Shown: positions 7,316 through 10,734 of the stretch, piece by piece | Position numbering within the stretch: the first letter of the stretch is position 1 | How the letters are laid out: each line of letters begins with the position of its first letter | IMG/VR virus record: IMGVR_UViG_3300036852_000313 | Location: 1-52,228 of that record | Direction: 5' to 3' (one strand) | DNA length: 52,228 bases | From: a virus | Lineage: Duplodnaviria; Caudoviricetes | The notes under the pieces: generated by a model | The model's database searches: none | Seen by the model: the letters and a program-made list of their open reading frames with translations, nothing else | What the model was told of the DNA's origin: nothing | Program-made: the position numbers and the translations under genes

Positions 7316-7349
7316 GCCGTCGCTCCAAAGGTTTGAGTTTGGGACTAGC
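7316..7349 (-). promoter_or_regulatory. SD-sequestering hairpin repeat, copy 7
   Basis: GCT-A-GTC-CCAAA-ctcaaacc-TTTGG-AGC-GAC-GGC-a-ATG. Confidence 0.75.
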
Positions 7350-7512
7350 CTTTTTGTGCAAACACTGCGGTTGGTACATTACCGTTGAGATACGCGCAGC
7401 GCCTTGCGGCACTTTCGCGGTCTGTGTGGTCTGAATCGCTGTGCCACGCACCGCGTGGATCATAAAAGCCTACTGTCCACAGCTCCGGCTCACTTCGCAC
7501 GTATACCCACAT
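7345..7512 (-). CDS. Small phage protein (55 aa, not in ORF track)
   Basis: MWVYVRSEPELWTVGFYDPRGAWHSDSDH...AARRCAYLNG; GGAGG RBS; its TAG stop lies inside hairpin copy 7. Confidence 0.75.
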   Translation of the reverse strand: MWVYVRSEPELWTVGFYDPRGAWHSDSDHTDRESAARRCAYLNGNVPTAVFAQKG

Positions 7513-7543
7513 CCTTTAATCCTCCAATTGAATGGGGACTAGC
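7513..7543 (-). promoter_or_regulatory. Hairpin repeat, copy 6 (degenerate)
   Basis: GCTAGTCCCCATTCAATTGGAGGATTAAAGG-ATG. Confidence 0.55.
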
Positions 7544-7553
7544 TTAACTGCGC

Positions 7554-7799
7554 TCACTCAATCTGCATCACTATCGTACATGCCGCAATATCGACTGGCC
7601 TGCCCGGCGTATCAAACTCCGCCGCAACTTGTGCGCCGTCCTGAATCACGACGTGACGCGCGCTTGCGTCATAGCGCACACGCGCACGGCACTCGTTTGC
7701 ATAAATCAATGTGCCTGTGCGCCGTCGCGTGCCGTCGTCGTCGAGCAGCGCGAATCGTGCACCGCTCGGTAGCGTCCACAGCTCGACAGTCGCGTTCAT
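7554..7799 (-). CDS. Hypothetical protein
   Basis: 81 aa; ATGA overlap. Confidence 0.65.
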   Translation of the reverse strand: MNATVELWTLPSGARFALLDDDGTRRRTGTLIYANECRARVRYDASARHVVIQDGAQVAAEFDTPGRPVDIAACTIVMQIE

Positions 7800-8380
7800 G
7801 TTTCCTTCATGTGCTGGTTATCCTGCGGGCAGATTGGCGCGCCCGGCCCGTCCAACCAGACGCGCGTCACGCGCGCCACGTAACCACAACTCCTACACGT
7901 CACCTTCACGAGTCGCGCGCCCTGTGCTTTCGGCAAACTGTGTGCGTCCAGTGCCGCATGCGGCCACGGCCCAAGCTCAGCGTTTAAACGTTCTAGCACC
8001 GCGCGCAGTTCTGAGCCTGCACACTGCGAGCGCGCTGGGCCAACGCTCAGGCCGATGCGCTCGCACGCGCGCACAAACGCTCGTTTGTGGCCCGTGCCTG
8101 GCGGCATGCACGCGTGCACCATCTCGTGACACAGTGTGTCTAGCGCCGCAATGGCGTCCTCGTGCAGCGGACTCACAAAGATGTGCGGCGCGCCGTCCAT
8201 CGAGTGCGCTCCGGCCCAGCACTGCCCCACCGTGGCGCCACGTTTGCCACGTAGCCCACCACGACTCGGGAACCCGACGCTTACGTGTATGTGCTCTGGC
8301 AGCGCGAGCGTTTCCGCCTCGAAACGTGCGCGCAGCGCCACAATGGCGCGCGTCAACCAGGCTTCGCGTGTGTCACTCAT
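7796..8380 (-). CDS. SprT-like HExxH metalloprotease with C-terminal Zn ribbon
   Basis: GQCW, TLCHEMVHA, GHKRAF, CRSCGY...PICP. Confidence 0.8.
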   Translation of the reverse strand: MSDTREAWLTRAIVALRARFEAETLALPEHIHVSVGFPSRGGLRGKRGATVGQCWAGAHSMDGAPHIFVSPLHEDAIAALDTLCHEMVHACMPPGTGHKRAFVRACERIGLSVGPARSQCAGSELRAVLERLNAELGPWPHAALDAHSLPKAQGARLVKVTCRSCGYVARVTRVWLDGPGAPICPQDNQHMKET

Positions 8381-8660
8381 AGACATTGCACGCACAACCA
8401 ATCTGCCCGCAATCGCGACAGTATGCACTCGGATTAAGCGGTATCACGTCGTCAGCATCTACGCTGTGCTTCCGGTCGTCTCCAATCATCACGCACACGA
8501 CACGGCCAGTGCGCACTTCGTAGCCAGACCATTCCGTGTCCTCGTCTGGCTCTGTCTCCCAGCCCAGCACATAGAACGCTACGCCGTCGTAGCCACGCAC
8601 GGCGTATGCGTCGTGCGGGAAAGCTTGCTCGTCGGGTTCGTAATGCGTGCGGTTATACAT
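8373..8660 (-). CDS. Acidic hypothetical protein
   Basis: MYNRTHYEPD...YCRDCGQIGC; follows hairpin copy 5. Confidence 0.75.
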   Translation of the reverse strand: MYNRTHYEPDEQAFPHDAYAVRGYDGVAFYVLGWETEPDEDTEWSGYEVRTGRVVCVMIGDDRKHSVDADDVIPLNPSAYCRDCGQIGCACNVYE

Positions 8661-8661
8661 C

Positions 8662-8693
8662 GCTGTCACTCCGGTTTGGGTGTCGGGACTAGC
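8662..8693 (-). promoter_or_regulatory. SD-sequestering hairpin repeat, copy 5
   Basis: GCT-A-GTC-CCG-acacccaaac-CGG-AGT-GAC-AGC-g-ATG. Confidence 0.8.
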
Positions 8694-8705
8694 GTATGGC
8701 TTGCT

Positions 8706-8765
8706 GACCTCATCAGTCGTGGCAGTCACCACGAGACGACGCGTGACTCGCGCGTCGTTTCGGTC
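8706..8765 (-). ncRNA. Type II hammerhead ribozyme HH1 (predicted cut between 8735 and 8734)
   Basis: GACC-GAAA-CGACGCG-cgagtca-CGCGTCG-TC^TCGTGG-tgactg-CCACGA-CTGATGA-GGTC: full CUGAUGA/GAAA/GUC core with three perfect stems. Confidence 0.92.
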
Positions 8766-8948
8766 TTAGACTATAGTTCCCCAATCCGGGTCCAGATCGT
8801 AAGCGCTTACCCAACGACAAGATGCGTCCTCATACTCGACATATGCGCGGTTATGCTCTTCGTCTATCTCCAGCACGACAACAAATGCCGTTACGTCTCC
8901 GTTGTCGTATTCAAGCTCCTGCCCGATGTACATGTCTGAGCATTTCAT
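8766..8948 (-). CDS. Small acidic hypothetical protein
   Basis: MKCSDMYIGQELEYDNGD...; follows hairpin copy 4; stop abuts HH1. Confidence 0.7.
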   Translation of the reverse strand: MKCSDMYIGQELEYDNGDVTAFVVVLEIDEEHNRAYVEYEDASCRWVSAYDLDPDWGTIV

Positions 8949-8951
8949 TTG

Positions 8952-8988
8952 GCCGTCGCTCCGCGCTAGGTTAGCTGTCGGGACTAGC
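8952..8988 (-). promoter_or_regulatory. SD-sequestering hairpin repeat, copy 4
   Basis: GCT-A-GTC-CCG-acagctaacctagcg-CGG-AGC-GAC-GGC-caa-ATG. Confidence 0.8.
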
Positions 8989-9232
8989 ATTCTGTGTTTG
9001 ACGCAATGCTGCTCGTTGCATCCATCGCGTAGGCGTTCGCCTCTGCAACCAAGTCCGTTAGTGTCTGTTGTGAGCTGGGATAGAACAGCTCTACGCCCTC
9101 CTCGACAATAACGATGCGTCCGTTCTTGCTCCATATGTCGAGTGTGTTCGGCGTGCCTTGCACTGGCGTGCTTGCCATGTGCCGCCAACCTGACTCTATG
9201 AGCAGGTTTGTGAGTTGCTGGCCTCTGTCCAT
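8984..9232 (-). CDS. Hypothetical protein
   Basis: 82 aa; its TAG stop is inside hairpin copy 4. Confidence 0.7.
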   Translation of the reverse strand: MDRGQQLTNLLIESGWRHMASTPVQGTPNTLDIWSKNGRIVIVEEGVELFYPSSQQTLTDLVAEANAYAMDATSSIASNTEC

Positions 9233-9234
9233 TT

Positions 9235-9273
9235 GCTGTCACTCCGAGCTAGGGTTAGCCAATCGGGACTAGC
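9235..9273 (-). promoter_or_regulatory. SD-sequestering hairpin repeat, copy 3
   Basis: GCT-A-GTC-CCG-attggctaaccctagct-CGG-AGT-GAC-AGC-aa-ATG. Confidence 0.8.
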
Positions 9274-9275
9274 GC

Positions 9276-9509
9276 TTACTCGTACTGCTCATCAATCATC
9301 TTCGCGAGTGCTTCGTCTTTCGTGGCGAATGGGCCGAAAGGTTCGCCGTCTGGCAGGCATCCAGGAAAGCAGGCCCACCAGTACCAGCCAGCTTCGCTGG
9401 GCTCACCATCGTTGTCCAGCTCCAACTCACCACGCCTAGCGTAGAATATCTCTACGTCTGGCAGCGTGTGTGGGTCATTCTCGCGGCTAGGATCGCTGTA
9501 CGCTTGCAT
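9276..9509 (-). CDS. Acidic hypothetical phage protein
   Basis: MQAYSDPSRE..LPDVEIFY...GWYWWACFPGCLPDGEPFGPF. Confidence 0.75.
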   Translation of the reverse strand: MQAYSDPSRENDPHTLPDVEIFYARRGELELDNDGEPSEAGWYWWACFPGCLPDGEPFGPFATKDEALAKMIDEQYE

Positions 9510-9540
9510 GCTGTCACTCCGAGTTAGTGTCGGGACTAGC
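9510..9540 (-). promoter_or_regulatory. SD-sequestering hairpin repeat, copy 2
   Basis: GCT-A-GTC-CCGA-cactaac-TCGG-AGT-GAC-AGC-ATG. Confidence 0.8.
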
Positions 9541-9552
9541 GTATAACTTGCT

Positions 9553-9613
9553 GGCCTCATCGGCCGCGGCAGTCACCGCGGGACGACGCGCTACGTCGCG
9601 CGCCGTTTCGGCC
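9553..9613 (-). ncRNA. Type II hammerhead ribozyme HH2, U4C core variant (predicted cut between 9582 and 9581)
   Basis: GGCC-GAAA-CGGCGCGC-gacgta-GCGCGTCG-TC^CCGCGG-tgactg-CCGCGG-CCGATGA-GGCC; stems covary with HH1. Confidence 0.85.
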
Positions 9614-9822
9614 TATGCGTATGCTGGATCAATGACGCGTTGGATATCCTTAGCACAAGCAAGCGCTGCGAATTGTAACGCGACGTATAGCGAGCGCTCT
9701 GGCGAGCGCGCTGGAAACGCTAGTGCCATACGCCAAAGGCGGTCTGATGTGTGACACAATGCGCGCATTCTCTGCGCCATGCGCCGTTCTTGCTCTATGG
9801 TGTGTTGTGCGTTCGTGTGCAT
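9613..9822 (-). CDS. Hypothetical protein
   Basis: MHTNAQHTIEQERR...; follows hairpin copy 1; TAG overlaps HH2. Confidence 0.65.
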   Translation of the reverse strand: MHTNAQHTIEQERRMAQRMRALCHTSDRLWRMALAFPARSPERSLYVALQFAALACAKDIQRVIDPAYA

Positions 9823-9825
9823 TTT

Positions 9826-9863
9826 GCTGTCGCTCCGTAGGGGGTTAGCCAATCGGGACTAGC
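9826..9863 (-). promoter_or_regulatory. SD-sequestering hairpin repeat, copy 1
   Basis: GCT-A-GTC-CCG-attggctaacccccta-CGG-AGC-GAC-AGC-aaa-ATG. Confidence 0.8.
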
Positions 9864-9953
9864 GTAAGCACACACCGCGCAGGTTAAACACTGTTGCCCA
9901 TAGATAGTATCGGGTCAGTCCTGCGCCAGTGTATGCCTTGCGCTGCAACACAT

Positions 9954-9970
9954 AGCATGATATGTGCCAA
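9954..9970 (-). promoter_or_regulatory. Possible sigma-54 (-24/-12) promoter for the early operon
   Basis: TTGGCACATATCATGCT: GG and GC at sigma-54 spacing, ATGC instead of TTGC. Confidence 0.3.
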
Positions 9971-10338
9971 GCGCACTAACCGCGCGTTTCGGCCACTTGC
10001 GGTCGCATCGTATCACATTGACACACCGCAACCTGCGACGAATCGTGCAAATTGCGAGAGTGTGCAACGTAGTAGCCAGCTAACGTGCGTTTAGCTGGTT
10101 ACTCGCGTCGTGCTAACCGGCTAGGCGCGTTTATGGTGGTTAGCGTGTCGAAGTGACACGTTTGGTGCTGACCAGCCTGTTGGCGCTGCCCGGCGCTGCC
10201 ACATTGGCGCGCGCGTGCGCCATATTGGCGCGACCCCCACCATGCCCCTTGGCGCTGCGGCGCGCAGAACTACGCGTTCGCGCTAATGCGCGGCATATTT
10301 TTTCTGAACGGTCTAGCTCGCTTCGCGCGATGCGGCGT

Positions 10339-10734
10339 TCATTTCGCATATCTCCACGGCAGCCCTGTCCAGCGCACAAGCAAGGTGCGCGCACCGAGTT
10401 CGCCGCCGTAGCGCAAACCGCGCTCCGCGCTCCAAAACAGCACCGAGTCCTCGACGAGCACGTAGATGCCGACGATGGAGTCGCGCTGCACGCCGCTATC
10501 TTGTGCTCTGGTCCACACAATCCAATCAGTAAACGTGCTGTCTGAACGCAACTCGATGGCGCCAGCAACAACCGCGCTTCCGTCAGCGCCGAATTTCCAC
10601 GGCAGCGTGTCGCCCGCGACGTTGCGCAGCGTCCATGTACCTAGCGCGCTAGCGTCTGGCGCCTGATTGTAGCACCCAGCGGCGCACGAGAGCATGAACG
10701 CAAGGCTCGTGGTGCAGCGAGCTGCGCCGATCAC
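10339..10734 (-). CDS. Lipoprotein with lipocalin-like beta domain
   Basis: Hydrophobic leader ending AAGC, then ALGTWTLRNVAGDTLP...AGAIELRSDSTFT. Confidence 0.65.
   Translation of the reverse strand: MIGAARCTTSLAFMLSCAAGCYNQAPDASALGTWTLRNVAGDTLPWKFGADGSAVVAGAIELRSDSTFTDWIVWTRAQDSGVQRDSIVGIYVLVEDSVLFWSAERGLRYGGELGARTLLVRWTGLPWRYAK

What the first reader, a model, noticed from the sequence alone, without database searches (positions are those of the whole stretch)
8735..9581. Ribozyme-flanked 847-nt three-gene RNA that could circularise
Seen: cutting at both ribozymes releases 9581->8735 (847 nt), carrying three complete ORFs (9509..9276, 9232..8984, 8948..8766), each behind its own SD hairpin. 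Established: a 5'-OH plus 2',3'-cyclic phosphate pair is the substrate of RtcB ligases, and this is how tandem-ribozyme transcripts such as retrozymes circularise. Seen: the ligated junction would form a chimeric hammerhead with stem II GACC/GGCC (A-C mismatch) and the U4C core, so it is predicted to re-cleave poorly. Inference: a DNA phage may make a stable circular multi-gene mRNA. I cannot show that ligation occurs.
Basis: inference. Interest (0 to 1): 0.85.

Follow-up and report, generated by a model that had tools for sequence, protein, structure and literature searches.

The report
Two hammerhead ribozymes bracket three phage genes
Two self-cutting hammerhead RNA motifs in a soil phage should cut a three-gene piece out of a long early message, a layout known in phages since 2011, and nothing I could test shows that the piece becomes a circle.

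Summary
Two type II hammerheads lie on the minus strand at 9613-9553 (HH1, core variant U4C) and 8765-8706 (HH2, canonical core). The cut sites give a fragment 9581->8735 of 847 nt that carries three small ORFs.

Evidence that the motifs are real:
- Both score below Rfam's cut-off (26.1 and 21.8 against 37 bits).
- A full descriptor finds 2 in the window against a mean of 0.01 in 100 shuffles.
- The copies differ by three compensated pairs and no broken pair.
- Each folds as a hammerhead at minimum free energy.

Circularisation has no support:
- The fragment's ends are not paired to each other.
- The junction hammerhead does not assemble in the model, so self-ligation is disfavoured too.
- The phage matches none of four RNA-ligase families.
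- No junction-spanning ORF appears.

Among 160 loci from phages that share the downstream gene, none shows the pair. Perreault et al. 2011 described ribozyme-flanked gene blocks in prophages, raised circular products and detected none.

The most likely function is to cut a polycistronic early mRNA into hairpin-capped linear pieces. This scan has reported the same layout on other DNA several times.

The parts
9553..9613 (-). HH1, a type II hammerhead with core CCGAUGA (U4C) that cuts after C9582. Its first base is the last base of gene A's stop codon.
   Evidence: Reading. RF02276 gives 21.8 bits, E 0.21. The minimum-energy fold is the hammerhead fold, with stem II pair probabilities of at least 0.93. 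Pairs are compensated against HH2.
8706..8765 (-). HH2, a type II hammerhead with the canonical core CUGAUGA that cuts after C8735. It starts directly after gene D's stop codon.
   Evidence: Reading. RF02276 gives 26.1 bits, E 0.015. The minimum-energy fold is the hammerhead fold.
8735..9581 (-). Predicted excised RNA of 847 nt. It starts with the stem I hairpin of HH1 (5'-OH) and ends with the stem III hairpin of HH2 (2',3'-cyclic phosphate).
   Evidence: Cut sites read. Fold z-score is -1.36 and the ends are not paired to each other. No junction-spanning ORF exceeds 39 aa.
9276..9509 (-). Gene B, 77 aa, unknown function.
   Evidence: Translation. No Pfam or PHROG hit. tblastn relatives in 6 of 160 loci, directly upstream of the E homologue in L012 and L143.
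8984..9232 (-). Gene C, 82 aa, unknown function.
   Evidence: Translation. Three homologues at 52-59% identity besides itself.
8766..8948 (-). Gene D, 60 aa, an orphan.
   Evidence: Translation. Only entries 100% identical to it were found. Codon-position GC fits coding sequence.
9510..9540 (-). Structured leader with Shine-Dalgarno in front of B. It forms a module of about 104 nt with HH1.
   Evidence: Motif hits. Alignment of the two modules.
9233..9273 (-). Leader motif in front of C.
   Evidence: and reading.
8949..8988 (-). Leader motif in front of D.
   Evidence: and reading.
8661..8693 (-). Leader motif in front of E. It forms the second module with HH2.
9613..9822 (-). Gene A, 69 aa, the cistron upstream of HH1.
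   Evidence: No family hit.
8373..8660 (-). Gene E, 95 aa, a conserved Cys-rich small protein and the first cistron downstream of HH2.
   Evidence: 371 homologues.

Best explanation
The two hammerheads are RNA-processing sites in a polycistronic early transcript of a double-stranded DNA phage. As each 61/60-nt motif leaves the polymerase it folds and cuts itself after GUC. The message then falls into three linear pieces: A, then B-C-D, then E and the genes after it.

Each downstream piece begins with a 5'-OH and the stable stem I hairpin, followed 15 nt later by a structured leader with the Shine-Dalgarno. Each upstream piece ends with the stem III hairpin and a 2',3'-cyclic phosphate. Such ends should resist the usual end-dependent RNases. 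They should also free each leader from upstream sequence, so the pieces can differ in lifetime and translation.

HH1 carries U4C and is expected to cut more slowly than HH2, so the cut before E should be the more complete one.

Shown here: the motifs, their covariation, their predicted folds and their positions. Inferred: cleavage in vivo, the chemistry of the ends, the effect on stability, and that one transcript spans the region.
For: Both motifs have all defining parts.
- They occur 2 times against a mean of 0.01 in 100 shuffles.
- They differ by 3 doubly compensated pairs, 1 G-U to A-U change and 0 broken pairs out of 19.
- Each adopts the hammerhead fold as its minimum-energy structure, with stem II pair probabilities of at least 0.93.

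Position fits processing. Both lie on the coding strand exactly between cistrons: stop codon, then ribozyme, then leader, then start. No terminator-like site lies on the minus strand between 9822 and 8660.

The ribozyme-plus-leader module of about 104 nt is duplicated, with most positions identical.

The record is a near-complete phage. CheckV gives 98% completeness and the large terminase has phage relatives.

Literature, passages read:
- Perreault 2011 reports multiple hammerheads flanking genes or short gene blocks in prophages and reads them as processing of long transcripts. It also notes that U4C lowers activity in vitro yet works in vivo.
- Olzog 2021 shows that three type II hammerheads near phage-like genes of Desulfovibrio vulgaris cleave in vivo, two of them about 250 nt apart.
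- Weinberg 2019 names processing of polycistronic transcripts as the proposed role.

Related phages carry single type II hammerheads beside the E homologue. L108 scores 49.1 bits, above the cut-off. L094 is found by my descriptor only.
Against: No RNA data exist for this phage, so cleavage is not shown.
- Both motifs score below Rfam's gathering threshold.
- HH1 has a core change that lowers activity in vitro.
- The pseudoknot of four or more pairs that most type II hammerheads use for fast cleavage is not evident. Only 3 pairs (CAG/CUG) can form right after stem II (reading).
- The pair is not conserved. A relaxed descriptor over 155 loci with an E homologue found no pair, only the 2 single hammerheads.
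- The promoter scan found no convincing promoter upstream of gene A, so the single-transcript assumption is inferred from gene packing.
Confidence: 0.7

Rival explanations
1. Circular mRNA. After both cuts, a host RtcB-type ligase joins the 5'-OH at 9581 to the cyclic phosphate at 8735. The 847-nt circle is translated from its three internal Shine-Dalgarno sites and persists because the junction hammerhead misfolds.
For: The end chemistry is what RtcB uses (established knowledge). Twin-ribozyme constructs give circular mRNAs in E. coli through the native RtcB (PMC12628768, passages read). The junction chimera is predicted not to form the hammerhead: stem II pair probabilities are at most 0.009 and the hammerhead fold is 4.4 kcal/mol above the minimum. 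All three cistrons have their own ribosome-binding leaders.
Against: Nothing holds the ends together. The 847-nt fold has z = -1.36 with the termini in separate local hairpins, whereas engineered systems rely on a designed terminal stem.
- The junction misfold equally disfavours ribozyme self-ligation.
- The phage has no match to RtcB, Rnl2-type, T4 Rnl1-type or 2'-5' ligase families, and the host is unknown.
- A circle creates no new or endless ORF. The longest junction-spanning frame is 39 aa.
- The one stem II difference is an ordinary compensated transition, which necessarily gives one mismatched and one wobble chimera, so the mismatch is not evidence of design.
- Perreault 2011 looked for circular or spliced products from clustered prophage hammerheads and detected none (data not shown in the paper).
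Confidence: 0.06
2. Only HH2 works. HH1 is a decaying copy disabled by U4C, so the transcript is cut once, before E, and no 847-nt species forms in quantity.
For: U4C 'considerably decreases activity in vitro' (Perreault 2011). HH1 has the lower Rfam score (21.8 bits) and is absent from the whole-window list at E<=1.
Against: All 7 stem differences between the copies keep pairing, and HH1 has the more stable fold (-34.8 against -25.2 kcal/mol). That argues for continued selection on HH1's structure. The same paper states that U4C retains enough activity in vivo for viroid infectivity.
Confidence: 0.15
3. The repeated ribozyme-plus-leader modules matter mainly at the DNA level. As direct repeats of about 104 bp they would mediate gain, loss or exchange of small gene cassettes, and RNA cleavage would be incidental.
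For: In 2 relatives (L012, L143) a B homologue lies directly upstream of the E homologue, with no C, D or ribozyme between them. The region is highly mosaic: A, C, D and F-I have no tblastn match in any of 160 loci.
Against: Compensated stem changes show selection on RNA structure, not just on DNA identity. No deletion or joined form appeared in the contigs of two soil DNA runs (contigs only).
Confidence: 0.05

Closest known systems
Clustered hammerhead ribozymes flanking genes or short gene blocks in prophages (Perreault et al. 2011, PMC3088659; passages read, supplements closed)
   Same: Type II hammerheads on the coding strand between small phage genes, several per operon, bracketing a short block of genes whose identity is not conserved. 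The reading is processing of a long transcript. Circular or spliced products were already considered there.
   Different: This is an uncultured soil phage genome and not a prophage. The upstream copy carries U4C. The usual loop I/3'-tail pseudoknot is not evident. Each ribozyme is fused to a repeated Shine-Dalgarno leader, forming a duplicated module of about 104 nt.
Type II hammerheads loc 2 and loc 3 of Desulfovibrio vulgaris (Olzog et al. 2021, PMC8782182; passages read)
   Same: Two co-oriented type II hammerheads a few hundred nt apart near phage-like genes. Cleavage was shown in vivo by capture of the 5'-OH and 2',3'-cP ends.
   Different: Spacing there is about 250 nt against 848 nt here with three cistrons. 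Activity here is untested.
Retrozymes and metazoan hammerhead circRNAs (PMC4918200 and PMC7229834, search listing and abstracts only; PMC7761336, passages read)
   Same: Two hammerhead cuts release a 600-1000-nt RNA with ends that a tRNA ligase or RtcB can join.
   Different: As I recall, in those elements the junction rebuilds the same ribozyme. The abstracts call their circular RNAs non-coding, and they belong to eukaryotic retroelements. Here the RNA codes for three proteins, is not strongly structured (z = -1.36), and the two ribozymes differ so that the junction chimera misfolds.
Engineered twin-ribozyme (Tornado-type) circular mRNAs in E. coli (PMC12628768; passages read)
   Same: A coding RNA with its own ribosome-binding site between a 5' and a 3' self-cleaving ribozyme. 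The native RtcB can close it.
   Different: As I recall the design, those constructs place complementary ends to present the termini to the ligase. No such terminal pairing exists here.
RiboJ-type ribozyme insulators of synthetic biology (recalled, from no call)
   Same: A hammerhead followed by a hairpin and the Shine-Dalgarno. Cleavage removes upstream context so that the leader folds the same way whatever lies upstream.
   Different: This is a natural element, with a type II topology, used inside an operon and not behind a promoter.

Membership tests
Hammerhead ribozyme, type II (Rfam RF02276) | Conserved core C3-U4-G5-A6-N7-G8-A9 and G12-A13-A14 | tested here: met
   HH2 has CUGAUGA and GAAA. 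HH1 has CCGAUGA (U4C, a natural variant named in Perreault 2011) and GAAA.
Hammerhead ribozyme, type II (Rfam RF02276) | Cleavage triplet NUH with an A15.1-U16.1 pair | tested here: met
   GUC in both copies. The A-U pair closes stem III.
Hammerhead ribozyme, type II (Rfam RF02276) | Stems I and III closed by loops and stem II open, supported by covariation | tested here: met
   19 pairs, 3 doubly compensated, 0 broken. The minimum-energy fold equals this structure.
Hammerhead ribozyme, type II (Rfam RF02276) | Score at or above the curated gathering threshold (37 bits) | tested here: not met
   26.1 and 21.8 bits. The model also missed the descriptor-positive L094 at E<=0.1, while L108, which my reading suggests can form the pseudoknot, scored 49.1 bits.
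Hammerhead ribozyme, type II (Rfam RF02276) | Pseudoknot of 4 or more pairs between loop I and the tail right after stem II (true of most, not all, members) | tested here: inconclusive
   Only CAG/CUG (3 pairs) can form directly after stem II. A 5-pair match to the leader's 5' arm lies 14 nt further on. The two copies are identical there, so covariation cannot be tested.
Hammerhead ribozyme, type II (Rfam RF02276) | Self-cleavage | not testable with these tools
   Needs a transcription or cleavage assay.
Clustered prophage or phage hammerheads (Perreault 2011) | Two or more co-oriented hammerheads flanking a gene or short gene block in phage DNA | tested here: met
   Two copies 848 nt apart around B-C-D on the coding strand of a phage record.
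Ribozyme-derived circular RNA (retrozyme or Tornado type) | Termini brought together by RNA structure, or a junction that rebuilds a functional ribozyme | tested here: not met
   The ends lie in separate hairpins. The junction chimera has stem II pair probabilities of at most 0.009.
Ribozyme-derived circular RNA (retrozyme or Tornado type) | A ligase for 5'-OH and 2',3'-cP ends is available | tested here: inconclusive
   The phage matches none of PF01139, PF09414, PF09511 or PF13563. The host is unknown.
Ribozyme-derived circular RNA (retrozyme or Tornado type) | Back-joined reads or an exonuclease-resistant species | not testable with these tools
   No RNA run was available to lay on the stretch (see Tried and rejected).

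The most novel reading that the evidence does not exclude
The 847-nt B-C-D RNA is closed by a host RtcB-type ligase into a translatable circular mRNA. The circle escapes re-cleavage because the two ribozymes have drifted apart by one compensated stem II pair, so the junction chimera misfolds. That would be the first natural protein-coding circular RNA made by twin ribozymes in a DNA phage.
Probability: 0.05. Interest if true: 0.85.

Novelty: new member of a known kind. Interest (0 to 1): 0.25.

Why it matters
[quoted passage not shown] This locus is a clean, compact example. It has two paralogous type II hammerheads, each fused to a ribosome-binding leader and set flush against the upstream stop codon.

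One copy carries the natural U4C core change. That makes a convenient test bed for three questions:
- Do such ribozymes set different lifetimes for segments of one operon?
- How much does U4C cost in a natural context?
- Do bacterial ligases ever close such pieces?

As it stands it adds an example and some quantitative folding arguments. It is not a new kind of system.

Tried and rejected
RNA evidence. The look-up of sequencing runs listed 2 holders, both soil metagenome DNA runs kept as contigs, and no RNA holder. Junction reads could therefore not be sought. Laying X1 and X2 showed:
- X1 is identical and may be the source of this DNA.
- The X2 pieces covering 8694-8920 and 8928-10500 have 0 differences.
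- There are no joints.
- Four X2 differences lie in gene F, outside the finding.
These are contigs only, so they say nothing about RNA.

Relatives.
- Nothing was found in 'phages' by DNA.
- Nothing was found in viral contigs with protein F alone or with a long HH pattern.
- Gene E opened the way. It has 371 homologues, giving 75 viral loci, the best 80 of 396 metagenome loci, and 5 genome loci.
- The strict descriptor over 75 loci plus the window found only the window's two hammerheads.
- The relaxed descriptor over 155 loci plus the window (994,472 bases) gave 111 raw hits. Nearly all have 3-pair stems or A/T-rich pseudo-cores. I kept only those with long stems in all three helices: HH1, HH2, L094 and L108.
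- RF02276 was run on 50 of the 75 viral records. 5 of 50 had hits of about 16 bits and 0 of 50 passed the cut-off. The sequences I printed (L156, L157, L159, L160; not L158) lack GAAA or a stem III.
- Two looser patterns in viral contigs (leader motif, HH 3' half) gave 27 and 25 single hits. I estimate that is about chance level. The relaxed type II descriptor found no credible hammerhead in these loci. The L198/L211 match lies in what reads as coding sequence.
- L213, the closest fetched genome-collection relative (74% identity in E), has no ribozyme, no leader motif and no other shared gene within 5 kb.

Other checks.
- The 'GGCCGAAAC' at 9994-9986 upstream of gene A does not align as a third hammerhead.
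- The whole-window Rfam E-value search found no other ribozyme class.
- Pfam and PHROGs gave nothing for A-E. F matches phrog_6361 and is called a SprT-like protease in actinophage records. J matches phrog_12365.

Literature. Searches found no report of a natural ribozyme-made circular mRNA in a DNA phage. The supplements of Perreault 2011 (alignments, Figures S2-S3) are closed and may hold relevant negative data.

Full report
WHAT THE WINDOW IS. The window is a whole IMG/VR virus record of 52,228 bp with 59.8% G+C. CheckV puts its completeness at 98%. Its large terminase is at most about 30% identical to any deposited phage, so it is a novel tailed phage. The same DNA occurs in contigs of two soil metagenome runs.

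The finding lies in a run of tightly packed small genes on the minus strand. I call them A to J, from 9822 down to 6631. They follow a non-coding stretch of about 450 nt. Only two of them match known families. F is a SprT-like protease by the naming of actinophage records (phrog_6361), and J matches phrog_12365.

Read 5'->3' on the minus strand:
- HH1 (9613-9553) has stem II GGCC/GGCC, GAAA, a 9-pair stem III, GUC with the cut after 9582, a 7-pair stem I with loop UGAC, and the core CCGAUGA.
- HH2 (8765-8706) has the same layout, with stem II GACC/GGUC, the cut after 8735, and the canonical core CUGAUGA.
- The released piece is 9581..8735, 847 nt.
- It holds B (9509-9276), C (9232-8984) and D (8948-8766), each behind a copy of a leader motif. 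That motif has 5 exact and 2 one-mismatch copies on the minus strand between 7339 and 9863.
- The ribozymes are packed flush. The G of A's stop codon is the first base of HH1, and HH2 starts right after D's stop.

ARE THE RIBOZYMES MORE THAN CHANCE? Rfam alone is weak:
- 26.1 and 21.8 bits against a cut-off of 37.
- Nothing at gathering in the whole window.
- Only HH2 at E 0.4 in the whole-window E-value search.

Other tests are strong:
- A core pattern hits twice against 0.03 expected.
- A full descriptor (core, NUH, three stems) hits twice against a mean of 0.01 in 100 dinucleotide shuffles. No shuffle reaches 2.
- The two copies differ at 11 alignment columns. Seven lie in stems and all keep pairing: 3 doubly compensated pairs, 1 G-U to A-U change, and 0 of 19 pairs broken. 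Three lie in loop III and one is U4C.
- Each copy's minimum-energy structure is exactly the hammerhead fold, with stem II pair probabilities of at least 0.93.

The low Rfam score probably reflects the missing loop I/tail pseudoknot. The same model missed the descriptor-positive L094 hammerhead at E<=0.1. It gave 49.1 bits to L108, whose loop I and tail can form that pseudoknot by my reading.

THE CIRCLE HYPOTHESIS. I joined the halves by coordinates in a script and folded the two possible chimeras.
- The circle junction (5' half of HH2 plus 3' half of HH1) does not form a hammerhead. The hammerhead fold lies 4.4 kcal/mol above the minimum and stem II pair probabilities are at most 0.009. A competing GGCC/GGCC hairpin takes two pairs from stem I.
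It also means the ribozyme cannot be expected to catalyse the ligation, so a protein ligase would be needed.
- The other chimera, with the flanks joined and B-D removed, folds as a good hammerhead with a canonical core (stem II probabilities 0.79-0.90).
- This asymmetry is not evidence of design. One compensated transition pair (C-G against U-A) always yields one C-A and one G-U chimera.
- The U4C argument is circular. The junction uses HH1's own core strand, so U4C cannot both allow the first cut and protect the junction.

Further points against the circle:
- The 847-nt RNA is not unusually structured (z = -1.36; 2 of 20 shuffles fold as well), and its termini sit in separate local hairpins.
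- The phage has no match to RtcB, Rnl2-type, T4 Rnl1-type or 2'-5' ligase families. The controls for those searches matched in 10, 10, 2 and 11 of 14 reference genomes.
- A circle would create no junction-spanning ORF longer than 39 aa and no endless frame.

COMPARATIVE EVIDENCE. Gene E, just downstream of HH2, is widespread, with 371 homologues. I fetched 160 loci that carry it: 75 viral, 80 metagenomic and 5 genomic.
- A relaxed descriptor over the 155 viral and metagenome loci found no ribozyme pair. L213, the closest of the 5 genomic loci, was checked separately.
- Two loci have a single type II hammerhead downstream of the E homologue. L108 has one about 30 nt after it, and L094 has one about 375 nt after it.
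- By tblastn against 160 loci (L001-L160), B occurs in 6, and it lies directly upstream of E in L012 and L143. A, C, D and F-I occur in none.
- D has no homologue at all in the word-indexed search of 5.8 billion proteins. C has three.

So the region is a mosaic of small genes. The ribozyme-plus-leader module of about 104 nt looks like a recent duplication within this lineage, and the pair is not a conserved unit.

WHAT IS KNOWN. Perreault et al. 2011 (passages read) report the following:
- They read this as processing of long transcripts.
- U4C lowers activity in vitro yet suffices in vivo.

Other papers, passages read:
- Olzog et al. 2021 showed in vivo cleavage of three type II hammerheads near phage-like genes.
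- The 2019 review by Weinberg et al. calls bacterial ribozyme biology largely elusive and names polycistronic processing as the suggestion.
- Engineered twin-ribozyme circular mRNAs do form in E. coli through RtcB, so the chemistry is feasible.

My four literature searches found no natural phage case. This scan has already reported the same layout, with the same verdict, on at least eight other stretches of DNA.

VERDICT. The stretch holds two genuine-looking type II hammerheads that most likely cut an early polycistronic mRNA into hairpin-capped linear segments (confidence 0.7).
- A circular product is possible but has no specific support (about 0.05-0.06).
- HH1 may be slow or dead (0.15).
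- A mainly DNA-level role for the repeated modules is a minor rival (0.05).
- It is a new member of a known kind, of modest interest.

Noticed in passing
window 7339-9863, minus strand: A leader motif (GCTAGTCCC..GGAGYGACRGC, a bulged hairpin that covers part of the Shine-Dalgarno) precedes genes A, B, C, D, E, H and I. The 11-mer search found five exact and two one-mismatch copies. Another first-stage note covers it.
   Followed up: partly
window 9574-9567 and 8727-8720 against the leader arms at 9538-9534 and 8691-8687: Loop I plus its closing bases (GUGACUGC) is identical in both hammerheads and differs at one of 8 positions from the leader's 3' arm (GUGACAGC). It can form 5 pairs with the leader's 5' arm (UAGUC), 14 nt after stem II. 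This could be a displaced pseudoknot, or a way for the retained ribozyme fragment to open the Shine-Dalgarno. The two copies are identical there, so covariation cannot test it.
   Followed up: no
window 9560-9558, minus strand: The AUG inside the HH1 core (CCGAUGA) is in frame with gene B and open through to it. The ORF listing gives a 94-aa ORF at 9276..9560. It has no Shine-Dalgarno of its own.
   Followed up: no
window 9994-9986, minus strand: GGCCGAAAC, the same start as HH1, followed by two hairpins but no CUGAUGA core, lies in the non-coding stretch upstream of gene A. It does not align as a hammerhead.
   Followed up: partly
L108 1734-1800 and L094 4887-4942: Related phages carry a single type II hammerhead downstream of the gene E homologue instead of upstream of it. 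L108 scores 49.1 bits, above Rfam's cut-off. L094 is found by my descriptor only.
   Followed up: partly
L012 4715-4945 and L143 4737-4943: A homologue of gene B lies directly upstream of the gene E homologue, with no C, D or ribozyme between. This suggests that C-D-HH2 is an insertion in the window's lineage, or a loss in theirs.
   Followed up: partly
window 8373-8660, minus strand (gene E): A small Cys-rich protein with invariant C81, C84 and C89 and a GWE..T.W.G..T motif. It has 371 homologues in metagenomes and no family name.
   Followed up: partly
window 7894-8009: The second soil run (X2) differs from the window at four positions, all inside the SprT-like gene F, on one low-depth contig.
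   Followed up: no
window 10278-10293, plus strand: A terminator-like hairpin followed by a T-run lies on the strand opposite to the early genes, in the non-coding stretch upstream of gene A.
   Followed up: no
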